In this document: piece by piece, positions 2,223-62,713 of the stretch
Layout of the letters: every line of letters starts with the position of its first letter
How positions within the stretch are numbered: the first letter of the stretch is position 1
DNA from: Torpedo marmorata
Lineage: Eukaryota
DNA: 64,000 nt
NCBI GenBank assembly: GCA_977017645.1
Contig: OZ360223.1
Coordinates: 204,352,001 to 204,416,000 of the forward strand
Reading direction: 5' to 3'
Translations under genes and position numbers: made by a program
Notes under the pieces: model-generated
The model's input: only the letters and a program-made list of their open reading frames with translations
What the model was told of the DNA's origin: nothing
Database searches by the model: none

Positions 2223-3210
2223 CTTAAAACATACTAGTTTTCTAACTTTATCTATTCTGAACAGGTCACACACCAGCAGAGTTAACTTTGTTTCTTTCTC
2301 CACAGATGATAACTGAAAATTTTCATACATTTCTGTTTTTATTTCTGTGAGTGAACAACTTAAATCCTCATGCAACAGAGATTAGGAACATGAGCAGCAA
2401 CAAGATGAATAAAAGGACAAATTAACCGAGAGTGAAAAAGTCATACTTTGAAAGTGTACAAATGGGAAAGATAACGTGAAATAGACTTAAGGTCCTGCCA
2501 TCATATATGCATCAAAACTGCTGTTATACAATTGCTAATTGAGCTCCAAATCCGGTTTTCGCTCAAATACATGAAAACACATAAAATATCTTTGTCGATT
2601 CAACAGTTGCAATCATAACATTAGTCCCTTAAAAAAAAAATGACTGTTGTGAAAACTAGAACCTGCAGATGCAGGAGATCTGAAATAAAAACAGGAAATG
2701 ATGACTTGCTCAACAGGTTAACTTCAGGTTGATGAACCTTGTCAGAAAATTGCATTCTATTGTTCTTTTCTTTTTAATTTTATTTATTGATTTTTAAAAC
2801 AAATAAAGTCAAATAATACAGAGGCAGTCAGTGCAAGAGTATACAATAATTACAATACAAGGATAATAATAAAGAAAATTATAATTACAAATGTCATTAA
2901 GTCCCCTCTCAGAAGTAATAATACAAGGAAAGAGCAATCAAGGAATGGCCACATAAAACTGACATACCCCAAAACATAAGAGCAAAGGAAAAAGAAAGGA
3001 AAAGAAAAAAAAAGGAATCTAAACTACAACTAACTAACAGAAAAGGGGAGGAAATCTAAACCCTAATCCATGCGTGTCTGAAACTGGCTAAGATAAAGAA
3101 AAAAAGAGAGAAAGAATGTTATAAAGCCCGTATTACAATGTCGGAAAGAGGCTCATAAACGAACCCCATATCCTCTGAAAATTGAGATTCTTATCAAGAT
3201 TAGAACAACA

Positions 3211-5847
3211 CAAGTTTCTAAAACTATAAATGCTATAAAGAAAAGTAATGGAGATATAACTTATAAACCTCAAGAAATAAACAATTCTTTTAAAGAATAT
3301 TATCAAAATTTATATACTTCACAAATGAGTCAAGATGTTGTTAAAATTGATGATTTTTTATCTAAAATTATGTTGCCTAAATTAAATAGTTCTAATAGAG
3401 ATTTGTTAGATCTACCAATTACAATGAGAGAAGTAGGTGAAGCTTTATCTTCATTGAATAGTGGTAAATCTCCGGGTGATGATGGATTTCCTGTAGAGTT
3501 TTATAAGAAGTTTAAAGATTTATTGATACCTATATATATGGAAGTATTGACTCAAATAAAGGAAACTCAGTTATTACCGAAAACATTTTTAAATGCTGTT
3601 ATTACAGTTATACCGAAGAAGGATAGAGATGTATTGAAAACTGAATCGTATAGACCTATATCATTGTTAAATGTAGATTATAAATTAATGGCAAAAATAT
3701 TGACAAATAGATTAGCTAAGTTTTTACCATTTTTAATACATTCAGATCAAGCAGGATTTATTAAAAATAGATATTCAAAGGATAATATAGCAAGATTAAT
3801 AAGTTTGATTAATTTACAAAAAAAGAAACAGGATTTACCGTTAGTGATAGCATTAGATGCAGAAAAAGCATTTGATAGATTAGAGTGGAAGTTTTTATTT
3901 AAGGTTTTAGAGAAATATGGATTTGGAAATACGTTTATAAATTGGATTAAAACTATATATAAGGAACCTACAGCTAAAGTAATCACAAATGGTCAAATAT
4001 CATCTAAATTTTCTTTGACACGGTCAACAAGACAAGGGTGTCCATTGTCACCTGCTTTATTTGTATTGGCAATAGAACCGTTGGCGGAAATGATTAGGAA
4101 AGATATGATTATAAAAGGGATAAAAGTAGGTACAGAAGAGCATAAAATTAGTTTGTTTGCAGATGATGTATTAATATATATGACAAAGTCTATTGAATCA
4201 CTTCAACAATTGGATAAAATATTGAGGGATTATGGTGAAATATCTGGATATAAAATAAATTCGGATAAAAGTGAAATAATGGCTTTATCTCAAGGAGATT
4301 ATACTAAATGTAAAGAAGTTACAAAATTTAAATGGGCTAAAGAAGCTATTAAATATTTGGGAGTAAAAGTGGATACAAAGTTAGAAAATTTATATAAATT
4401 AAATTATATACCTTTATTTCAGAAAATAAAGAAGGATTTAGATAATTGGAAAGATTTACCTATAACTTTAATAGGAAGAGTGAATTGTATTAAAATGAAT
4501 ATTTTTCCAAGAGTTCAATATCTTTTTCAATCTATACCTTTTAGTATTCCTCAAAAATTTTTTAAAGATTTAAAAAGTATTATCAGAAAGTTTTTATGGA
4601 AAGGAAAACTGGCAAGAGTAAGTATGGATAAATTAACTTGGGAATATGAAATGGGTGGATTACAACTTCCTAATTTTCAATATTATTATAAGGCAGCACA
4701 ATTAAAGTTTATAAATGAATTATTTGATTTAACTAAAAATACGGCTTGGATTAATATAGAATTAAATAATATAGGAGAAAGAAATAAAGAAGATATTATT
4801 TATAAATGGAATTCTAAATTATTATTGATTAAAAAGAAAAAGTCACCGATTATTAGACATTTATTAGAGATTTGGAATCAACTAGATAATGAAATAGGGC
4901 GAAAAGGATCAATTTCTTTAAATATGCCATTATATCAGAATTTATTATTACCATTTTCTATGGATAATCAATTTTTAAAAGTATGGCATCAAAAAGGAAT
5001 TAAGAAGATTAAAGATTGTTTTGAGGCAGGACGATTTGTTACTTTTTCGAGATTGAAAGAAAAATTTGGAATAATGGATAATACAATTTTAGCTTATTAT
5101 CAAGTTAAAGGATTTTTAGTTGAGAAATTAGGGAATCAATTAATATCCCCTAGACAGGATGGGTTAGAATTATTAATTACTAATGGAAATGTCAATAAAT
5201 TTATATCGCAAATGTATAAATTATTTCAGAAAAAGATACCTAAAGTAGGATTGCATAAATCTAGATTAAATTGGGAATCAGATCTAAATACTAATATAGA
5301 TGAACAACATTGGAAAGAATTGTGTAAATTGAGTATGACTAAGATTATTAATGTTAGATATAGATTAGTACAGTATAATTTTTTCCATCAACTATATATA
5401 ACACCTAAAAGATTAAAGAAATTTAACCCGGCATTGTCAGATATGTGTTTTAGATGTAAAGACGAAATAGGTTCTTTTGTACATTGTACATGGTCGTGTT
5501 TGAAAATTAAAAATTTTTGGTCTAAAGTTAAAGATTTTTTAGATAGAATTTTTAATATTATGATTCCATTGGATCCCATGATATTTCTATTTGGAGATAT
5601 AAAAAGAATTAGTATTAGAAATAGATTAAATATGTATCAAATAGAATTTTTAAGAATTGTGTTAGCTATATCAAAAAAATGTATTGCTATTACTTGGAAA
5701 TCAGATTTAGATTTGAATTTAGATAGATTACATGCAGAGTTACGTTCATGTATACCTTTGGAAAAAATTACTTATAATTTACGAGATAAATATCATTTCT
5801 TTTTGAAAATTTGGAGCCCATATATGAGAATTATGGGTATGAATTAA
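3211..5847 (+). CDS. L1 ORF2 remnant: reverse transcriptase and C-terminal CCHC region, endonuclease missing (first ATG at 3325)
   Basis: Open frame from the 5' junction; motifs KSPGDDGF, YRPISLLNVDYK, LDAEKAFD, TRQGCPLSP, LFADD, KYLG, CFRC...H....C. Confidence 0.9.
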   Translation, partial: QVSKTINAIKKSNGDITYKPQEINNSFKEYYQNLYTSQMSQDVVKIDDFLSKIMLPKLNSSNRDLLDLPITMREVGEALSSLNSGKSPGDDGFPVEFYKKFKDLLIPIYMEVLTQIKETQLLPKTFLNAVITVIPKKDRDVLKTESYRPISLLNVDYKLMAKILTNRLAKFLPFLIHSDQAGFIKNRYSKDNIARLISLINLQKKKQDLPLVIALDAEKAFDRLEWKFLFKVLEKYGFGNTFINWIKTIYKEPTAKVITNGQISSKFSLTRSTRQGCPLSPALFVLAIEPLAEMIRKDMIIKGIKVGTEEHKISLFADDVLIYMTKSIESLQQLDKILRDYGEISGYKINSDKSEIMALSQGDYTKCKEVTKFKWAKEAIKYLGVKVDTKLENLYKLNYIPLFQKIKKDLDNWKDLPITLIGRVNCIKMNIFPRVQYLFQSIPFSIPQKFFKDLKSIIRKFLWKGKLARVSMDKLTWEYEMGGLQLPNFQYYYKAAQLKFINELFDLTKNTAWINIELNNIGERNKEDIIYKWNSKLLLIKKKKSPIIRHLLEIWNQLDNEIGRKGSISLNMPLYQNLLLPFSMDNQFLKVWHQKGIKKIKDCFEAGRFVTFSRLKEKFGIMDNTILAYYQVKGFLVEKLGNQLISPRQDGLELLITNGNVNKFISQMYKLFQKKIPKVGLHKSRLNWESDLNTNIDEQHWKELCKLSMTKIINVRYRLVQYNFFHQLYITPKRLKKFNPALSDMCFRCKDEIGSFVHCTWSCLKIKNFWSKVKDFLDRIFNIMIPLDPMIFLFGDIKRISIRNRLNMYQIEFLRIVLAISKKCIAITWKSDLDLNLDRLHAELRSCIPLEKITYNLRDKYHFFLKIWSPYMRIMGMN

Positions 5848-6142
5848 TTCTCTAAAAGTTAGTACTGCTGACAAAAGTAACCTCCATATATAATTAGAGT
5901 TAGTCTGAAATAGTTTTCTCCTCATACTAACATTCTTAACTTTATTTCTCATTCTATTTCTTTCCTTTTAACTAACACTTCTATATATATATATTTTTTT
6001 TTTTTTTTTTATCTTTCTTTATTAGAATAGTGTGGGAGGGTTGGGGAGGGGAGGGAGGGAAGGGAGGGTGGTAAATGTATCACATGTATTTTGAACAATA
6101 TATTATTTTTGACTATGTATTTTGTGATTTTAAAAATTAAAT

Positions 6143-6172
<30 letters not shown>
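3211..6172 (+). mobile_element. Young 5'-truncated L1-clade LINE nested in the minus-strand L1
   Basis: 15-bp TSD AAGATTAGAACAACA at 3196-3210 and 6173-6187; 3' UTR, AATAAA and pure poly(A) at 6151-6172. Confidence 0.95.
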
Positions 6173-6174
<2 letters not shown>

Positions 6175-8967
6175 GATTAGAACAACAAATTTGTTCCAAC
6201 GTCAAGCATGACATCACACAGTTGAGCCAGTGGCGATGTGAAGGGGGATCAACGTCTTTCCAGTGTAAAAGAATATTTTTCCTAGCAATAAGTGACGTAA
6301 ATGCTATCACATGCAATTGCGACTTCGTAAGTTTAGAGTCATTCACTTTATAAATCCCGAATAAACCCATAAACGGGTTAGGAGTTAAATTGACATCAAG
6401 AACACTGGACCACGTCTGAAAAATACTAGACCAGTAATTATATAACGAAGGACATGTCCAAAACATATGGTATAAGGTACCTTCCTCGATTTTACATCTA
6501 TCCCAAAGGGGGAAAGATTTGGGTAAAATTTAGCTAATCGAGACTTAGAATAATGAGCTCGATGAACAACTTTAAGCTGGATAAATGAATGGCGAGCACA
6601 TAAAGAAGAAAATTAATAGCTAGGAGCACCCGTTCCCATACGGAAACAGAAATCTCCTCTTGAAAATCTAGCTCCCGCTGCTGTTTAACCTTTCATAATA
6701 TATCCTCCCTGTAACTAGAACGAGTCAATAATAAATAAAAGAGATAATTTCCAAATTTAATGCTTGAGGGAGGCACAATTTAAGCGAAATTAAGTAGTTC
6801 CTGACTTGAAGATATCGGAAAAAATGTTGAGCAGGTAAGTTAAATTTAGTAACTACGGTAATTGTTGAAATGTTGCAAGATTACCATCCACATATAAATC
6901 CAGGGAAGTCCTAATCCCAAGTGTTGACCATCTGCGGAAACCGCTATCCATTGTTGATGGGAGAAAAAAAGAATTATACAAAAACGGGACTATTCAATAG
7001 AAAACCATGCGCACCTACAAACTTCCTAAATTGAAACCAAATTCGTAAAGTATGTTTAACAACCAAATTAGTCACAAATTTAGAAACAGAGAAAGGCAGA
7101 GTGGCGCCCAAGACCGATATAAGTGAATGTTTTTTAATAGAGTTTAATTCAAATTCCAGCCATGGACTAACCAGTCTGTCTCCCACCGCATGAACCCAAA
7201 AATTAACATATTTAATATTAGCGGCCCAGTAATACAACCTAAAGTTTGGGAGGCCAAGACCACCCTCCTTCTTGGATTTTTGTAAAAAGATCTTCCTGAC
7301 ACGGGCCACTTTATTATTCCAAATATAAGATATCATTGAATCTAGTTTATCAAAATAAGATTTAGGTAAGAAAACGGGAAGCGCCTGAAATACATATAAT
7401 AATTTAGGCAAAACACTCATTTTAACCAAGTTTACCCTTCCCACAAAAGAAGTGGAAAGGGGAGACCATTGAGCAAGTAATTTTTTAATTGTGGTTAATA
7501 AAGTGAGATAATTCTCCTTATACAAGTTACCAAATTGTAAAGTTAAATTCACTCCCAAGTATGTAAAGAAATTTGTAACAACCTTAAACGGTATATCAAA
7601 ATCTAAGGTATGAGGGGGTTTAAGGACAAACTGAGTTTATAACCGGAAAATTTACCAAATTTTTTAAGCAACAATAATACCGCTGGAATAGAACGTTCAG
7701 GGTTAGAAATATATAATAAATATCTCATCATATTGTCGAAAGGCAGTCGCTAAAGGTTCAAGAGCTCGGTCAAACAATAACGGGCTAAGAGGGCAGCCTT
7801 GCCGAGTACCATGATATAATCTAAAGGGGGAAGACTTCTTAAAATTTGTGACCACAGAAGCTGTGGGAGATGAATACATTAATTTAATCCAATTTATAAA
7901 CTAAGGACCAAAATTAAATTTATTTAATACAGCAAATAAATAAGCCCACTCCACCCTATCAAATGCCTTCTCAGCGTCTAATGAGATAATACATTCTTTT
8001 GGAGATGCGCTAGTAGAATAAATGATGTTTAAGGTCCTTTGAATATTAAACTGTAAATAGCGACCTTTAACAAAACCAGTCTGATCATCAGAAATTATAT
8101 TGGAATCACCTCTTCTAATCTGTGAGTAAGAATTTTAGACAAAATTTTTGCATCCACATTAATAAGACAGATGGGGCGATAGGAAGCACAGTCAGCAGGA
8201 TCTTTATTTTTCTTAAGTATTAAAGAAATAGAAGCTTCATAAAAGGAGTTAGGCTGCTTACCCGCCACCTTAGCCTCTTTCAGTGTCAATTCTAAATAAG
8301 GAAGTAGGAGATCTTTGAATGTTTTGTAGAATTCTACAGAAAATCCATCTGGGCCGGGGGCTTTACCTGATTGTATAGAATTAATAGCCTTTAAAATCTC
8401 ACCCGAAGAAATGGGCCTCTCCAACCCCAATTTAATTTCTGCCGATAATGTAGGGATATCTAAATTATCCAAAAATTGATCTATTTCTAAAGGATCATCA
8501 GGCGCCTCAGAACTGTATAACACTGAATAGAATTCCCGAAAAGCATCATTTATCTGATCATGATTCGTAGTTAAAATACCATCCTTCTTTCGAATCTCCG
8601 TAATAAATTGATTAACATTATGAAATTTAATTTGATTAGCAAGTAATTTGCAAACTTTATCCCCATGAACATAAAAATCTGATCTACTCTTTAGCAAATA
8701 GGGCTCAATAGGATAGGTAAAAAGCATATCATGTCTCGACTTAAGCTCACAGCCAAAGTTAGGAGAGATTCTGTTAAAGAACGCAACAAGTTGCTGTCAG
8801 ATATTAGGCTCACAGAACAACAATGTGCTTCGCAAACAGATTAGGCTCTTTTTAAAAGACGCATTCTATTGTTCTTACAGAATATATTTTTAGACTATGC
8901 AATAAGAATAACACATCACTATCAAAGTTCCAGAGAAAGGGAATCTGTGCCAGTTGCTGCAATTACC

Positions 8968-11133
8968 AGATTCAGAATTTATTGTCATGAACGAGTCATG
9001 AAATTTGGTGTTTTGCGGCAGCATCATAGTGCAATTAACATTCATATTAACCATCTTACGACATTACTATAAAAAATTATAAACAATAGTGCACGAAAAG
9101 TAAGGCAGTGTCTTTGGTTCATTGATTATTCAGGAATCTGATGGCAGCGGGGAAGTAACTGTCCTTGTGCTGTTGAGTGCTCGTCTTTAGGCTCCTGTAC
9201 CTTTTTCCCGATGGAAGCAGAGTGAAGAGGGCATGGCCTGGGTGGTGGGGGTCTTTAAGAATAGAGGCTGCTTTTTTAAGCCACCGCCTCATGTAGATGT
9301 CCTCGATGGAGTGAAGTTTGGTGCCTGTGATGTCACAGGCCGAGTTAACAACCCTCTGGAGTTTACTCTTGTCCTGGGAGTTGGCGCCTCCATACCAGGC
9401 AGTGATGCAACCAGCCAGAATGCTCTCCACGGTACACCTGTAGAAGTTTACGAGAGTCTTCGGTGACATACCGAATCTCCGCAGACACCTCACAAAGTTT
9501 AGCCGCTGACGAGCCTTCTTTGTGATTGCATCCACGTGGATGCTCCAGGACAGATCCTCGGAGATGTTGACACCCAGGAATTTGAGGTTTTTGACCGTCT
9601 CCACTACTGAGCCCTCGATGAGGACTGGGTCGTGTTCCCCTGTCTTCCTCCTGAAGTCCAAAATCATCTCCTTGGTTTTGCTGACGTTGAGCTCAAGGTT
9701 GTTGCCATTACACCATTCAACGAGCTGATCTATCTCCCTCCTGTACGCTTCCTCATTGCCGTTTGTGATTCTGCCGACAACTGTGGTGTCATCGGCAAAC
9801 TTGTAGATGGCATTGGAATTGTGCCTGGCCACACAGTCATGGGTGTATAACGAGTAGAGCAGTGGACTAAGCACGCATCCTTGGGGTGCGCCTGTGTTGA
9901 TAATCAGTGAGGAGGAGACGTTGTTTCCAATTTGTACTGACTGTGGTCTTCCGATGAGAAATCAAGGATCCAGTTGCAGAGTAGGGTACAGAGGCCTAGA
10001 GTTTGTAGCTTCTTGACCAGCACTGAGGGAATAATGGTATTGAAGGCCGAGCTGTAGTCGATGAAGAGCAGCCGTATGTATGAATTGCTGTTTTCGAGGT
10101 GATCCAGAGCTGAGTGGAGAACCAGCGATATTGCATCTGCTGTGGAGCGATTGTGACGATAGGCGAATTGCAGTGGGTCCAGATCTTTGCTTAGGTACGT
10201 GTTAATTCTGGCCATGACCAGCCTCTCAAAGCATTTCATCACAGTAGAAGTTAGTGCTACTGGGCGGTAGTCGTTGAGGCAGCCCACACTACTCTTCTTG
10301 GGTACCGGGATGATAGATGCCCTTTTGAAGCAGGTGGGAACTTCTGACTGCCGCAATGAGATGTTGAAAATGTCCGTGAACACTCCGGCTAGTTGGTTGG
10401 CACAGATTTTCAGTACCCTGCCAGTTACGCCGTCAGGGCCTGACGCCTTGCGAGGGTTCACCCTCTTGAATAATGTTCTGACGTCACCCTCAGAGACAGA
10501 TATCACAGGGTCCTCAGCCTTTTCAGGGATTCTAGTAGGCACTGTTTTGTTCTTCTTCTCAAATCGGGCATAGAAGGTGTTCAGCTCATCGGGTAGTGAA
10601 GCATCACAGCCGTCTATAGTGTTTGCCCTCGCTTTGTTGGCTGTAATGGCCTGCACTCCCTGCCATAGCTGGCGTGTATCTGTCTATGTCTCTAGCTTCC
10701 TCCGGAATTGCCACTTTGCTTCAGAGATGACCTTCCGCAGGTCGTGCCTGGACTTCTTGTAAAGATCCCGGTCCCCGGACTTAAACGCCCTTGTTCTCGT
10801 CCTCAGCAGGTAGCGAATTCTCTGATTCATCCAGGGCTTCTGGTTGGGGAACACCCGGTATTTGCGCGTGGGCACACACTCATCCACGCAGGTCTTGATG
10901 AAGTCGGTGACACGGTTTCATATTCATTTCGGTCTATGGCTGAGTGCTTGAATATGTTCCAGTCCACCGATTCAAAGCAGTCCTGCAGACGCTCCTCTGC
11001 CCCCCTCGACCATACTTTCGCCGTCCTCACCACTGGTGCTGTGATCTTCAGTCTCTGCTTGTACGCCGGGAGTAGAAGCACAGCCAGGTGATCAGACTTG
11101 CTGAAGTGCTGTCGTGGTATGGCTTGGTATGCC
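8968..11133 (-). mobile_element. Rex1/Babar-type LINE, 5'-truncated, copy 1
   Basis: SDHLAVLLLPAY (end of endonuclease), [35 protein letters not shown]; tail AATAAATTCTGA; several frameshifts. Confidence 0.88.
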
Positions 11134-11352
11134 AGGTACCTATAGTTAAAATTTGACATTGAAACATGATACTTGAGCTAATATTGTTCTTGACCAAGAA
11201 ATTGACCATTCAGCTACTTCAAATTAGCTCAGTGTTCATGCACAATTTCTTTCCCTTCCCTGCCTGACCAAAGACATGTTCACTCTTTATAAATGTCGTC
11301 ACTTTTTTCTTTTATAAAAATATGATTATTCTATAGCCTCCAATTATCATTC

Positions 11353-12710
11353 CAGAATCAGAATTTATTGTCATGAACACGTCATGAAATTCGGTGCTTT
11401 GTGGCAGCATCACAGTGCAAACATTCATATTATAACCATCTCACGACATTACTATAAAAAATATAAATAATAGTGCACGAAAAGTAAGGCAGTGTCTTTG
11501 GTTCATTGATTATTCAGGAATCTGATGGCAGCGTGGAAGAAGCTGTCCTTGTGCCGTTGAGTGCTCGTCTTTAGGCTCCTGTAAATTTTTCCCCGATGGT
11601 AGCAGAGTGAAGAAGGCATGGCCTGGGTGGTGGGGATCTTTGAGGATAGGGGATGCTTTTTTAAGACACCGCCTCATGTAGATGTCCTCGATGGAGTGAA
11701 GTCTGATCCTGTGATGTCACAGGCCGAGTTAACAACCCTCTGGAGTTTATTCTTGTTCTGAGAGTTGGCGCCTCCATACCAGGCAGTGATGCAACCAGCC
11801 AGAATGCTCTCCACGGTACACCTGTAGTTTACGAGAGTCTTAGTCTTCTGTGACATACCAAATATCCTCAGACACCTCACAAAGTATAGCCGCTGGCAAG
11901 CCTTCTTTGTGATTGCATCAACGTGGAGGCTCCATACAGATCCTCGGAGATGTTGACACCCAGGAATTTGAAGTTCTTGACTCTCTCCACTACTGAGCCC
12001 TTGATGAGGACTGGGTCGTGTTCCCCTGACTTCCTTCTGAAGTCCACAATCATCTCCTTGGTTTTGCTGACATTGAGCTCAAGGTTGTTGTCGTTACACC
12101 ATTCAACGAGCTGATCTATCTCCCTCCTGTACGCTTCCTCATTGCCGTTTGTGATTCTGCCAACAACTGCGGTGTCATCGGCAAACTTGTAGATGGCATT
12201 GGAATTGTGCCTGGCCACACAGTCATGAGTGTATAACGAGTAGAGCAGTGGACTAAGCACGCATCCTTGGGGTGCGCCTGTGTTGATAATCAGTGAGGAG
12301 GAGACATTGTTTCCAATTCGTACTGACTGTGGTCTTCCGATGAAAAAGTCAAGGATCCAGTTGCAGAGTAGGGTACAGAGGCCTAGAGTTTGTAGCTTCT
12401 TGACCAGCACTGAGGGAATAATGGTATTGAAGGCCGAGCTGTAGTCGACGAAGAGCAACCGTATGTATGAATTGCTGTTTTCGAGGTGATCCAGAGCTGA
12501 GTGGAGAGCCAGCGATATTGCATCTGCTGTGGAGCGATTGTGACGATAGGCGAATTGCAGTGGGTCCAGATCTTTGCTTCGGGACGTGTTAATTCTGGCC
12601 ATGACCAGCCTCTGAAAGCATTTCATCACAGTAGAAGTTAGTGCTACTGGGCAGTAGTCGTTGAGGCAGCTCACACTACTCTTCTTGGGTACTGGGATGA
12701 TTGATGCCCT
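11353..12710 (-). mobile_element. Rex1/Babar-type LINE, 5'-truncated, copy 2
   Basis: Closely similar to 8968-10322; ORF 11877-12674 contains [10 protein letters not shown] and KFADD. Confidence 0.88.
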
Positions 12711-12888
12711 CTTCCATATTTAATATGCTCTTCTACTTTAAAGATACAGGAATATCATCCTGTTCCAAATTGATTAAAAGCATTGTTGGCATGAGTGGAG
12801 CAGGGGAAGGGTAATACTTATCAGCATTTGCTGATAAAAATCAAAACATCCTGTTGTCTAACAATGCATTATGAAATATTGGGCCATG

Positions 12889-13638
12889 TTTAATAGGAAG
12901 GGTAAATTGTATCAAAATTAATGTCTTTCCAAGAATTCAATATCTTTTTCAATCAATTCCTTATGAAATTCCTCAAAAGATTTTTAAGGATTTAAATTTA
13001 ATTATTAGGAAATTTTTGTCGAAGGGAAAGTTAGCTGGAGTAGGTATGGAGAAATTAACTTGGAATTATGAAATGGGAGGTTTACAACTTCCCAATTTTC
13101 AAAATTATTATAAGGCATCTCAGTTAAAATTTATTAATGAAATGTTTGATTTTGAAAAATCTTCTGCTTGGATTAGAATAGAACTAAATAATATAGGAGA
13201 GAATTTGAAAGATGAAGTTATTTATAAATGGAATTCTAAATTATTATTAAGAGGAGGTAAAAACTCTCCTATTTTAAGGCATTTGTTAGAAATATGGAAT
13301 AAAGTGGATAGGGAGATAGGAGGGAAAGGGTTAATTTCTTGTAAAATGCCTTTATATCAAAATAAACATTCCATTTACTATTGATAATCAATTGTTTAAA
13401 ATTTGGTTTCAAAAAGGGATTAAAAAAGTAAATGATTGTTTTGAAGCTGGTAAATTTATCATTTTTCTAAGAATGAAAGAGAAGTTTAATGTATTAAATA
13501 ATACACACTTTGCTTATTATCAAATAAGAGCATTTTTGGTTGAAAAGTTAGGGCATAGTTTAATATTACCAAGACAAAGTGAATTGGAGCTACTAGTTAT
13601 TAATGGGAGTATAAATAAATTCATTTCTCAAATGTATA
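12889..13638 (+). mobile_element. Internal fragment of an L1 related to the 3211-6172 element
   Basis: ORFs 13016-13384 and 13392-13766 align with the 840-aa ORF (EMGGLQLPNFQ, IYKWNSKLLL); ends abruptly at the Penelope-like element. Confidence 0.88.
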
Positions 13639-27847: not shown

Positions 27848-27959
27848 AGTCTATCAAGCTGTGGTGTTAATGATGTCACCCTGCTCTTTATAAAGCCAGC
27901 CTTGCCTACATTTGAGAAGGTCATATACAAGTCTGGTACGAGTGAGCAAAGAGTTTCCA
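27848..27959 (+). other. RNF220: 5' UTR portion of the first coding exon of RNF220
   Basis: Polypyrimidine tract plus TACAG acceptor ending at 27847. Confidence 0.75.
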
Positions 27960-28587
27960 ATGGACTTGCACAGAACAGCTTTCAAGATGGAGAATTCTTC
28001 CTACCTCCCTAATCCCCTTGCATCTCCAGCTTTGATGGTCCTTGCCTCTACAGCAGAGGCTAGCCGAGATGCCTCCATCTCTTGTCAGCAGCCTAGACCT
28101 TTTGGAGTACCCGTCTCAGTGGACAAAGATGCCCACATCCCCTTCACCAATGGTTCATACACCTTTGCCTCAATGTACCATCGTCAGGGTGGGGTGCCAG
28201 GGGCCTTCCCAAACCGCGATTTCCCCCCTCAGCTTTTGCATTTGCATCATCAATTTGCACCTCCGAATCTGGACTGTACCCCCATCAGCATGCTGAACCA
28301 TAGTGGTGTTGGGGCTTTCCGGCCCTTTGCCTCCGCTGAAGACAGAGACAGTTATCAGTCTGCCTTTACACCTGCTAAAAGACTAAAGAACTGCCATGAA
28401 ACTGAATCCCCCCATCTGAGGTTTTCAGACTCTGAGGGCAAGGAATATGAGTTCACAGCCCAGCTCCCGTCCAGTTCCCCCAGCTCACTAAAGCTAGATG
28501 ACTCTGGAAAAAAGGTCTTTGCTGTGTCAGGTCTCATCTCTGACCGAGAAAATTCTGCAAGCCCTGAAGAAAGTCGAAACGAGAGAT
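27960..28587 (+). CDS. RNF220: E3 ubiquitin ligase RNF220, first coding exon (209 codons + 1 nt, phase-1 intron)
   Basis: MDLHRTAFKMENSSYLPNPLASPALMVLASTAEASRDAS...SYQSAFTPAKRLKNCH is nearly identical to the vertebrate RNF220 N-terminus; GTGAGT donor at 28588. Confidence 0.96.
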
Positions 28588-31500
28588 GTGAGTGATTGTT
28601 TTTTTACTTGATTTTGTTTTATTTTTGTAAATTCAAATGTTCCATTTATTGTATCATATGAGTTCTGATAGCTGTTTCACATTAAATTTGAATCTAAGCT
28701 AAATTATCTTACTGAAGAGGTTACTTTAAAATTTAAATTACTTGAACTCAGAATTGTTCCACTTTTAATTGAGAACTGAGAATTATGTGGACAACATCTA
28801 AAGTAATCGTTCTTGTCAGTCTTTCACTTTTCATCTAGTGCATTTTAATTTCAGTTGCCGGTTTGTTTGCTCGAGAGCAGGGTTTTAATGGTGTACAGTT
28901 TAAAATAAAACTAAGTAAAACAAACAGAATTGCACCTTCCAGTGATTAAAATCATTCAAAGGAATTAAGATAAGATCATCTTTCCGTGGAGATCTAATGC
29001 TATAAATATTCTTTTAAAGAAAGCTCTTCACTAGCCCTTCTCATCAGCATCACTCTCATCCCCACCCCCAGCACAATCAACCAAATAACTTCTGAGAAAA
29101 GAGAAACGACCCTATAACTGAGAGGAAGCCGATCCTCGCATCTGCATTGTGATGTTTGTTGAGTTAGATTGCAATTCCAGAAGTTTGTGGGGCACATCAG
29201 TGGTTCGAGAAGAAAGGTGCTGCTTAGAAGATGAGGTGTTAATGGGTGATAAGTTAACAATCCTCAACTGTGGGAAGCTACTGGCTTTTGTTGGTGTTTT
29301 GGTTGAAGAAAGAGTAAGAGGTGGCAAGGGAATCAAGAAGTAAAGGTGAGAATAAAAGAGAGGGAGAAAGTGAAAGCAAAGGGATGCAAAACAAAGTGAG
29401 TGATAAAGAGGGCATTAAAAAACTGTTGGTGAGGAAGAAAGGCGAAAAAAATTGAGTACGAGGACAGATCATTTCAAAAGTTTGATTGCAGTAGGGAACA
29501 CAGATGGGCGATATTATGGTTAAGAAGCAGTAATTAATCTGCAATTGTTGAGTCAGAATCCAGGCCCCTATCTTCCTTCCTGAGCTGTTAACAAAAAAAA
29601 ATTAAAACAACAAAACGTGGATGTCTTTGCTTCCTTCCTGACAGGACCAACCTGGTTGCTTTTCTTCTTCATAAATGTCTTCTGATTTATTGAGCAAACA
29701 AATTGGAACAGTGTTGGTGGGATGGTAATGACAGGAGAAATAGTACAAATTGAAACCTATATTAATATTCTTTCCATTCGCTGCAAGTAAACTTTCGCAA
29801 GGATGTTCTTATAATCATGTGCCAATTGGTGTGTTTTGCATTACTTAACCAGATGTGAAAACACTGATCTTTTCAGTTCTTCCCACTGGATTTCAACTGG
29901 CATCCTTTTCACATTTCTTTAAATACTTCCCTCCCCTCTTTTCCTCTACCCTCTTATGGTAATGATAGGCACTAATATGGAAAAAAAATTGCAAGGAAGG
30001 CAGTGGCGGATCAGCTTTGAGCAGTTACTGAGAGCTAGTATTATACAACCTCAGTCTTTAAGCCTGCAGTGTAGAAAAAGGATTTGAGGGTTGTTGGAAT
30101 GAATATTGAGGTGCGAAAGAGATAAGAGAAGGGACAATTGGACTCTATAACACAATGCCATTTGTTATAAGGCAGAGGTGTGAGCTGCCACACTTTAAAA
30201 AAAACTACCTCGCAGTATGTTTGTATTAAATTGCATGCAGCTGGACTAATACATCTTTTAAACAGATAAATGTACAATGGCAGCTTTATAGGATTGTAAA
30301 TACAAATGCTAAAGAAAAGCTGATGGTGTGGAAAACTGATGAAAATCTACAGTTTACTTTCATCCAAATATGGCTTTTAAAAGCTGAATTGATGAATGAT
30401 GAGTTGCTAGACATTAACATTTTTTAAATAAAAGCAACATTATAAACATTTTCTTCAATATTTCAGGCCATCTGTTTTTATTTTAGAAATTCTTTATATC
30501 CAACAGTTAAAATAGGTTAATCATCTATCTCCATTTTGTGCATGATGACAAAAAAACACAATAACAATATAAACCTGATTTGTTATGAATAACTTTGCAC
30601 TATATTTCAACAGCAATTGAAATTACATTAAATTTAACTAGACATTCCTCTACTTAATATCTAATTTTTATCTAGCAGATATTAATAAATATGCATTACA
30701 AATTTAGTTTTTAAGAGTGGCACTATCATACATGAATGCCTCGTGTGAATTACTTACACATATTCTTTTTTAAATGATACTTTATTTTTTTTTATATATA
30801 GTAATGTGTAATTTCTACAGATATTTATTATCAAGATTGTTATGATGTCAGTTAAACAATCTATACATTTATAGCTTTATCTATTGGTCTGTCTATGTAC
30901 TACTATTTATTGCTTTAGCTACTTTTAGTTAACACTGATTGCATTGCACTAGTGTGTAGGATAAATGGTTGATTTATAAAGTGGAGTTTCATTACGAAGG
31001 CTGTAGCTTGAAATATTGCAGCTAAATGGTAATATGTATGGAATTTTTGGGGCTGCCAGAGGCTTAGTACGCAGATCTGTCACTTTCCCTGAGCAACAAC
31101 CCTGACGACCTCTATTCAAAGTGCCATCGATTTCCTTTCTTTATTTCTTCCCAAAAAATCTGTTACAAGACTGCTGCCAAGGGAGTACCTGCTCAATTGC
31201 AGAATAACACTTATTCACTTTTAAATACTGTTTCTTAGAAATAAAATTGAACCAATTCAAACTTTGAACATTTTCTTTTAAACTGATAAAACTGAATATA
31301 TTGCACAATGCTACAGATTTTGTGGGCTCTATTATTTTAAGTGATTTAGACATTGAGTGTCTGAAATAAAAGAAGCCTGTTTAAAGGGGTTTATTTATTA
31401 ACCTATACTTTATGATTGGCAAATGTAGCAAGATAAATATTTAGAGTTGTTGCTCAGAGTCAGAATTTCCATTTGTTAAAAATGTATTATGTGCGATTCG

Positions 31501-61055: not shown

Positions 61056-62613
61056 TTCAGAATCAGAATTTATTGTCATGAACAAGTCATGAAATTCGGT
61101 GTTTTGCGGCAGCATCATCGTGCAAACATTCATATTATAACCATCTTATGACATTATAGAAAAATAAAATATATAAATAATAGTGCACGAAAGGTAAGGC
61201 AGTGCCTTTGGTTCATTGATTATGTAGGAATCTGATGGCAGCGGGGAAGAAGCTATCCTTGTGACTTTAGGCTCCTGTACGTTTTTCATGATGGTAGCAA
61301 AGTGAAGAGGGCATGGCCTGGGTGATGGGGGTCTTTGAGGATAGAGGCTGCTTTTTTAAGACACCGTCTCGTGTAGATGTTCTCGATGGAGTGAAGTCTG
61401 GTGCTTGTGATGTCACAGGCCGAGATAACAACCCTCTGGAGTTTATTCTTGTCCTGAGAGTTGGCGCCTCCATACCAGGCAGTGATGCAACCAGCCAGAA
61501 TGCTCTCCACGGTACACGTGTAGAGCTTTATGAGAGTCTTCGGTGACATACCGAATCTCTTCAGACACCTCACAAAGTATAGCCGCTGGCAAGCCTTCTT
61601 TGTGATTACATCAACGTGGAGGCTCCAGGGCAGATCCTCGGAGATGTTCACACCCAGGAATTTGAAGTTCTTGACCCTTTCCACGACTGAGCCCTCGATG
61701 TTCCCCTGACTTCCTCCTGAAGTCCACAATCATCTCCTTGGTTTTGCTGACGTTGAGTGCAAGGTTGTTGTCGTTATACCATTCAACGAGCTGATCTATC
61801 TCCCTCCAGAACGTTTCCTCATTGCCGTTTGTGATTCTGCCGACAACTGTGGTGTTATTGGCAAACTTGTAGATGGCATTGGAATTGTGCCTGGCCACAC
61901 AGTCATGGGTGTATAATGAGTAGAGCAGTGGGCTAAGCACGCAACCTTGGGGTGTGCCTGTGTTTATAATCAGAGAGGAGGAGACGTTGTTTCCAATTCG
62001 TACTGACTGTGGTCTTCCGATGAGAAAGTCAAGGATCCAGTTGCAGAGGGGGGTACAGAGGCCTAGAGTTTGTAGCTTCTTGACCAGAACTGAGGGAATA
62101 ATGGTAATGAAGGCCGAACTGTAGTCAATGAAGAGCAATCGTATGTATGAATTGCTGTTTTCGAGGTGATCCAGAGCTGAGTAGAGAGCCAGCGATATTG
62201 CATCTGCTGTGGAGCGATTGTGACGATAGGCGATGTGTACTGGGTCCAGATCTTTGCTTAGGTACGTGTTAATTCTGGCCATGACCAGCCTCTCAAAGCA
62301 TTTAATCACAGTAGAAGTTAGTGCTACTGAGCGGTAGTCGTTGGGGCAGCTCACACTACTCTTCTTGGGTACCGGGATGATTGATGCCCTTTTGAAGCAG
62401 GAGGGAACCTCTGACTGCCACAATGAGAGGTTGAAAATGTCCGTGAACACTCCGGCTAGTTGGTTGGTGCAGATTTGCAGTACCCTGCCAGGTGCGCCAT
62501 CAGGGCCTGATGCCTTGCGAGGGTTCACCCTCTTGAATGATGTTCTGACGTCACCCTCAGCGACAGATATCACAGGGTCCTCAGCCTTTTCAGGGATTCT
62601 AGTTGGCACTGTT
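61056..62613 (-). mobile_element. Rex1/Babar-type LINE, 5'-truncated, copy 3
   Basis: Colinear with copy 1; catalytic FADD mutated to FANN. Confidence 0.88.
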
Positions 62614-62713
62614 TGTTCAGTTATGAAGGTGATAATCCTTTAATATTTCCCCCCACTCTCTATTTTCATCCTGACTAATACTTCACACTATTCTACCTTT
62701 AACAACAAAGTTT

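What the first reader, a model, noticed from the sequence alone, without database searches (positions are those of the whole stretch)
8749..8876. Twin-priming-type 5' inversion in a non-mammalian L1
The minus-strand L1 begins ...ELKSRHDMLFTYPIE at ~8748. The next 112 bp read on the PLUS strand as TAKVRRDSVKERNKLLSDIRLTEQQCASQTD*ALFKRRI, which fits as the ORF2 linker segment directly preceding it. The whole element is bounded by a perfect 16-bp TSD, and the TSD start (GCATT) continues the L1 frame, the microhomology expected from internal priming by the second target strand. This structure is documented mainly for mammalian L1, so a clean case in an apparent cartilaginous fish bears on how old the mechanism is.
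Basis: partly seen in the sequence, partly recalled or inferred. Interest (0 to 1): 0.7.

Follow-up and report, generated by a model that had tools for sequence, protein, structure and literature searches.

The report
Front-flipped L1 copies in cartilaginous fish
A dead L1 jumping-gene copy in a shark-or-ray genome has its first 114 bases back to front, likely because both ends of the cut DNA started copying the same RNA ('twin priming', known from human L1); about one in six sampled copies of its family show the same flip, while none of 82 copies of a younger L1 family in the same genome do.

Summary
Confirmed, with one correction. Window 8749-8862 is a 114-bp antisense piece of the same L1, exactly contiguous with the sense part in 29 of 29 other copies. 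The element (2768-8860, split by a younger nested L1) is bounded by a unique 16-bp TSD. The host is an elasmobranch. In a position-ordered sample, 10 of 64 TSD-bounded family copies are 5'-inverted (16%, CI 8-27%; human germline 18%). Their microhomology is above chance at both junctions, and 12 of 13 TSD-verified cases have under 40 nt lost or doubled. A younger L1 family (37% amino-acid identity) shows 0 of 82 (p=2e-4). A third, older family had 1 inversion in 20 breakpoints, so lineage and age are not separated. No reads cover the locus. The scan already noted single twin-primed L1 copies in this and other cartilaginous-fish genomes; the family-level rate and the contrast are measured here. 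Known mechanism, new host lineage; I found no paper reporting it there, but key papers were not held.

The parts
2752..2767 (.). Outer target-site duplication, copy at the element's 3' end (16 bp)
   Evidence: exact match to 8861-8876, unique in window
2768..3195 (-). 3' piece of L1 family A: end of ORF2 (stop at about 3133-3135), 3' UTR and short A-rich tail without a long poly(A)
   Evidence: 97% to family mapping reference positions 5236-5679; sequence
3196..3210 (.). Inner TSD of the nested L1 (15 bp), first copy
   Evidence: identical to 6173-6187
3211..6172 (+). Nested, younger, 5'-truncated L1 of family B with poly(A) tail; inserted after the outer element
   Evidence: 98% to natural copy L234; RVT_1; 37% aa identity to family A
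6173..6187 (.). Inner TSD, second copy
6188..8748 (-). Sense (poly(A)-end-primed) part of L1 family A: ORF2 from the linker through RT to the C-terminal region, broken by stops and deletions
   Evidence: 93% incl. gaps to reference 2549-5250; ORF fragments
8749..8753 (.). Inversion junction: 5 nt that fit both the 5' end of the inverted piece and the start of the sense piece
   Evidence: null P(>=5)=0.0065
8749..8862 (+). Inverted (internally primed) piece, 114 bp of the ORF2 linker, reference 2437-2550
   Evidence: 95.6% to family, 5 substitutions, no gaps; contiguous with sense part in 29 of 29 copies
8861..8862 (.). 2-nt microhomology shared by the TSD and the L1 RNA at the internal priming site
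8861..8876 (.). Outer TSD, copy at the element's 5' end, flush with the inverted piece; target reads CTGT/AAGA on the element's strand

Best explanation
This is a 5'-truncated L1 copy whose first 114 bases are inverted inside an intact 16-bp target-site duplication, likely made by twin priming during its insertion. Inferred steps: (1) the L1 endonuclease nicked the bottom strand at TCTT/AC and reverse transcription began at the RNA 3' end; (2) the top strand was cut 16 nt away, and its 3' end paired with 2 nt of the same RNA at the point the first cDNA had reached; (3) it primed a second cDNA of about 112 nt; (4) the two cDNA ends annealed through up to 5 complementary nt and were sealed. A younger L1 later inserted into the 3' end of ORF2. 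Shown: the architecture, the contiguity, the microhomologies, and that about 16% of TSD-bounded copies in the family sample have this structure.
For: Unique 16-bp TSD flush with the inverted piece. Exact contiguity in 29 of 29 copies and in contigs of 3 of 4 runs. Family survey: the first 100 of 984 pattern matches, in position order on C1, gave 99 loci. 64 had a TSD (63 by script, whose chance rate was 1 of 288, plus L151 by eye); 10 of the 64 are 5'-inverted with the TSD flush (CI 8-27%). Over 13 TSD-verified inversions (these 10, the window copy, L039, L040), microhomology at the TSD junction averages 2.2 nt against 0.71 by chance (p about 2e-5). At the inversion point it averages 1.7 against 0.72 (n=15, p about 8e-4). 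12 of the 13 have under 40 nt lost or doubled between the pieces. TSDs of 9 script-called inverted copies are 16-19 bp. This matches the human pattern in PMC2912911 (passages: about 70% of inverted L1 with 2-5 bp at the 5' junction, less at the inversion junction).
Against: For this single copy the 2-nt match at the TSD is weak: 180 of 5671 reference positions match as well or better. No reads span the locus and no empty site was seen. Four further inverted loci lack a recognisable TSD (L108, L124, L133, L159/L160). In one search the script mis-placed the TSD in 2 of 13 rows and scored a third as negative; by-eye values give the same mean. The sample is one chromosome and one sub-lineage, because the pattern carries a variant absent from the majority reference.
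Confidence: 0.92

Rival explanations
1. A normal 5'-truncated L1 inserted first, and its first 114 bp were inverted later by DNA repair or recombination.
For: Family A is old enough (median pairwise identity 95.5%) to carry secondary damage: nested insertions and internal deletions are common. The youngest family has no inversions, as accumulation with age would predict.
Against: One breakpoint would have to fall exactly on the TSD edge; this holds in 10 of 10 TSD-verified sample inversions plus the window copy. No inversion confined to the interior of an element was seen in the 99 loci. The microhomology at the TSD junction is with the RNA sequence at the priming point.
Confidence: 0.04
2. 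Assembly error, or two separate fragments of one family that abut by chance.
For: No reads cover the junction.
Against: One TSD encloses both pieces. The pieces are contiguous to the base in the family. The structure recurs with different breakpoints at ten other loci. A family with 99% identical copies, more prone to mis-assembly, shows none in 82.
Confidence: 0.02
3. The inversion arose during integration but not by RNA priming from the second strand, for example by fold-back or host end-joining of a first-strand cDNA.
For: Some junctions carry extra bases or larger losses (L154 insert, L084 558-nt loss). Family A also has many microhomology-bounded internal deletions, which suggests error-prone 5' resolution.
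Against: Near-zero gap between the pieces, excess microhomology at the TSD end, and inverted pieces that run to the RNA's first bases in 5 of 10 cases (L089, L093, L109, L115, L151) fit copying from intact RNA. Sequence alone cannot fully separate the two routes.
Confidence: 0.1

Closest known systems
5'-inverted (twin-primed) human and chimpanzee L1 (model of Ostertag and Kazazian 2001, not held; as described in PMC2912911 and PMC12016303, passages read)
   Same: TSD of about 15-19 bp flush with an inverted 5' piece; 2-5 nt microhomology at the 5' junction and less at the inversion point; small gap or overlap; rate of the same order (16% here; 18.4% of germline polymorphisms in PMC12016303; about 30% of lineage-specific TSD-flanked copies and about 10% overall in PMC2912911).
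   Different: Host is an elasmobranch. The element is a fish-type L1 of about 5.7 kb with a short 5' UTR starting like zebrafish L1 (PMC5381506, passages), a T-rich sense strand and only a short A-rich tail. A coexisting L1 family shows no inversions in 82 copies.
De novo LINE inserts in chicken DT40 and HeLa cells (Yamaguchi et al. 2014, PMC4245944, passages read)
   Same: Concludes that 5' inversion depends on both LINE species and host, and goes with 10-20-bp TSDs.
   Different: There, inversions were confined to human L1 in human cells apart from one zebrafish Nimb-2 insert. Here a non-mammalian L1 inverted often in a non-mammalian germline. Family B has 15-17-bp TSDs yet no inversions, so TSD length alone is not sufficient.

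Membership tests
L1 clade non-LTR retrotransposon | ORF2 with N-terminal APE endonuclease and RT, closest solved relative human L1 ORF2p | tested here: met
   Sister copy L031: Exo_endo_phos and RVT_1; human ORF2p E=1e-126, R2 proteins only 1e-20. Two window ORF2 fragments outside these domains gave no Pfam hit.
L1 clade non-LTR retrotransposon | ORF1 plus ORF2 in a 5-7 kb unit with vertebrate L1 5' end | tested here: met
   Mapping reference 5687 bp with two frames; first bases match the zebrafish L1 5' consensus quoted in PMC5381506. ORF1 domains were not scanned.
L1 clade non-LTR retrotransposon | TSD of about 10-20 bp at a T-rich/A-rich endonuclease site | tested here: met
   16-bp TSD, CTGT/AAGA; family TSDs 10-24 bp. 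The motif variants are as listed in PMC12016303 only approximately (TCTT/A is not among its three).
L1 clade non-LTR retrotransposon | 3' poly(A) tail | tested here: inconclusive
   Family A copies end in a short A-rich tract, not a long poly(A); family B has one.
Twin-primed 5'-inverted L1 | Antisense 5' piece and sense 3' piece inside one TSD, flush at the 5' edge | tested here: met
Twin-primed 5'-inverted L1 | Pieces adjacent in the source RNA (small gap or overlap) | tested here: met
   0-5 nt here, depending on assignment of shared bases; 12 of 13 cases within 40 nt
Twin-primed 5'-inverted L1 | Microhomology at the TSD junction and at the inversion point above chance | tested here: met
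   2 and 5 nt here; family means 2.2 and 1.7 against 0.7. The 2-nt value alone is not significant.
Twin-primed 5'-inverted L1 | Empty pre-insertion site holds one copy of the TSD | not testable with these tools
   No relatives of this genome are held; no run covers the flank.
Twin-primed 5'-inverted L1 | Second reverse transcription primed on RNA by the top strand (biochemistry) | not testable with these tools
   Needs a retrotransposition or in vitro TPRT assay.

The most novel reading that the evidence does not exclude
Twin priming is an ancient ability of jawed-vertebrate L1, at human-like frequency in a cartilaginous fish, and its rate is set by the element, not the host. Two L1 lineages in one genome, with equally long TSDs, differ from about 16% to under 5%. 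That gives a natural pair in which to map the ORF1p, ORF2p or RNA feature that decides whether the second strand primes on the RNA.
Probability: 0.35. Interest if true: 0.72.

Novelty: new member of a known kind. Interest (0 to 1): 0.5.

Why it matters
5' inversion is described almost only from mammalian L1, and a cell-culture study found none for human L1 in chicken cells, which suggests a mammalian host context. A family-level rate near the human one in an elasmobranch shows that neither mammalian L1 nor mammalian cells are needed. That makes the ability either very old or easily re-evolved. The contrast between families A and B in one genome makes the open question of what controls second-strand priming testable. 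The single copy itself is dead and of no evident function.

Tried and rejected
GCATT as a 5-nt microhomology: rejected (0 of 29 copies). Read support: 6 runs listed, none holding half the words, no RNA holder listed; 4 laid, none covers the unique flank, so the junction and empty site could not be tested. Rex-like LINE control: only 13 pattern matches, one being the window's own; no inversion seen within 1.5 kb, too few to use. Splicing as the cause of family A internal deletions: not supported; the 10 junctions shown mostly have short homologies rather than GT-AG ends. Strict lineage specificity (only lineage A inverts): not supported, because family C, a B-like lineage of about A's age (96.2% pairwise), has one inverted locus (L321, TSD outside the fetched stretch) among 20 breakpoints, against 6 of 48 for A (p=0.66). 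Position pairing of listed matches gave 38 same-strand pairs and that 1 opposite pair; C could be examined only within 1.5 kb of one pattern. Closeness to human ORF2p does not separate A from B (427 vs 414 bits). Papers not held: Kojima and Okada 2009, Ichiyanagi et al. 2007, Ostertag and Kazazian 2001. Term look-ups in PMC5381506, PMC5389967, PMC6007223, PMC3747384, PMC13174262, PMC7245038 and PMC5470649 gave no statement on non-mammalian L1 inversion. L127 was not extended and L128 was extended instead (coordinate slip).

Full report
Observation. The region was read. A 16-bp direct repeat lies at 2752-2767 and 8861-8876 and is the only long match of that region in the window (chance about 4e-5). 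Between the copies, on the minus strand, lie the sense part of an L1 (8748 down to 6188) and its 3' end (3195-2768). They are separated by a plus-strand L1 of another family (3211-6172) with its own 15-bp TSD and poly(A). The stretch 8749-8862 is on the opposite strand.

Contiguity. A search of the genome (6.22 Gb) with 8749-8865 gave 835 candidates, of which 40 were scored and 30 cut as loci, one being the window's own. In all 29 others the piece is followed, after five bases, by the start of the sense part; 28 read GCTGT there and none GCATT. The overlap with the TSD is 2 nt, and the five bases 8749-8753 fit both the end of the inverted piece and the start of the sense piece (chance of 5 or more is 0.0065). 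Contigs from 3 of 4 public runs hold the family in the colinear form; none covers the unique flank, so the locus itself is not read-verified.

Identity. A sister copy has endonuclease and RT domains and its best solved relative is human L1 ORF2p. A working mapping reference made from natural copies is 5687 bp with two frames and begins like zebrafish L1. An RNF220 exon at 27957-28592 is 97-99% identical to shark and ray proteins (rays rank first), 95% to chimaera and at most 90% to tetrapods among 120 listed. The host is an elasmobranch, probably a batoid.

Family rate. A 25-nt 3' UTR pattern has 984 exact matches; the first 100 are listed in position order on C1, blind to 5' structure. Two fall in one locus, leaving 99 loci. 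The pattern marks a sub-lineage, since it is absent from the majority reference. A tolerant TSD finder (chance rate 1 of 288) found TSDs in 63, and L151 was added by eye. Ten of these 64 have an antisense piece flush with the TSD (16%, CI 8-27%). In five of the ten the inverted piece runs to the first bases of the element. Three more inverted loci lack a visible TSD (L108, which shares its junction with L109; L124; L133), and L159/L160 is a head-to-head pair. Over 13 TSD-verified cases (the ten, the window copy, and L039 and L040 from the first, biased sample) microhomology at the TSD junction averages 2.2 nt against 0.71 (p about 2e-5; three rows were mis-scored by the script, and by-eye values give the same mean). 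At the inversion point it averages 1.7 against 0.72 (n=15, L108 dropped, p about 8e-4). Twelve of the 13 have under 40 nt lost or doubled; L084 lost 558. Published human values are 18.4% of germline polymorphisms (PMC12016303, passages), and about 30% of lineage-specific copies with about 70% having 2-5 nt at the 5' junction (PMC2912911, passages).

Controls. Family B (the nested element; 37% amino-acid identity to A; 738 pattern matches) was sampled the same way. None of the first 82 copies is inverted, and 81 have a TSD match of 10 bp or more (Fisher p=2e-4 for 10/64 against 0/80, upper bound 4.4%). B copies are longer (median 3.7 vs 1.7 kb), so length does not explain the zero, but B is much younger (99.4% vs 95.5% pairwise). 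Family C, B-like and about as old as A (96.2%), gave 19 truncations and one inversion among 20 breakpoints in 30 loci, the TSD lying outside the locus; A gave 6 of 48 by the same measure (p=0.66). The A-B contrast is firm, but whether it reflects the element or a change in the host over time is open.

Mechanism. Shown: the architecture and the statistics above. Inferred, following the twin-priming model as described in PMC2912911 and PMC4245944 (passages): bottom-strand nick and priming at the RNA 3' end; top-strand cut 16 nt away; pairing of that 3' end with two bases of the RNA where the first cDNA stalled; about 112 nt of second cDNA; annealing of the two cDNA ends through up to five bases. 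Later inversion is unlikely because one breakpoint sits on the TSD edge in every verified case. An end-joining route during integration cannot be excluded from sequence.

Novelty. Ten paper searches (listings only, 40 of 106 'twin priming' papers listed) showed no report of genomic L1 5' inversion in fish or cartilaginous fish. PMC4245944 reports inversions only for human L1 in human cells plus one zebrafish Nimb-2 insert. The papers most likely to hold such counts (Kojima and Okada 2009; Ichiyanagi et al. 2007; Ostertag and Kazazian 2001) were not held, Ichiyanagi and Okada 2006/2008 were seen only as citations, and no supplements were read, so absence from print is not established. Earlier notes of this scan describe single twin-primed L1 copies in this genome and in other cartilaginous-fish genomes; they are unchecked and were not used as evidence.

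Verdict. A real twin-priming-type insertion: known mechanism, new host lineage, here with a measured family rate and a within-genome contrast. Interest 0.5.

Noticed in passing
window 3196-6187: Young family B L1 nested in the 3' end of the family A ORF2, with a perfect 15-bp TSD. Family B is 99% identical among copies; 15 of 80 sampled copies are full length and several have both frames open, so it is probably active or recently active.
   Followed up: yes
L087, L090, L100, L104, L120, L131, L134, L147, L149: TSD-bounded family A copies with internal deletions of 60-3300 nt, mostly at short homologies (up to 7 nt) rather than splice sites; not seen in the 82 family B copies. They may be the same-orientation counterpart of the inversions, or later decay.
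   Followed up: partly
L159/L160 (G000:C1 about 315,348,200-315,361,800): Two family A copies fused head to head with 2 nt shared: a near full-length one and a 5'-truncated one lacking its tail. No TSD found. Could be priming on two RNAs at one break.
   Followed up: partly
L108 and L109 (G000:C1 about 164.995-165.022 Mb): Two inverted family A copies in opposite orientation, about 27 kb apart at their 3' ends, share the same inversion junction but have different 3' flanks; probably a local duplication or conversion of one event.
   Followed up: partly
L041 and L044: Two further inverted family A copies in the first (biased) sample; L044's inverted piece reaches the element's 5' end, and its 3' end lay outside the fetched stretch.
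   Followed up: partly
L210 and L177: Two family B loci 50 Mb apart gave the same 16-bp A-rich TSD string; not examined further.
   Followed up: no
window 8961-12720 and 61286-62640: Several minus-strand copies of a Rex-like LINE (RVT_1 plus PF09004; the name Rex is recalled, from no call), two of them about 2.4 kb apart directly beside the L1.
   Followed up: partly
window 27957-28592 (+): First large coding exon of RNF220a; the L1 lies about 19 kb upstream of it.
   Followed up: yes
window 12889-13638 (+): Older fragment of a B-like L1 (77% to family B); the genome holds many B-like subfamilies at 55-83% amino-acid identity to B.
   Followed up: partly
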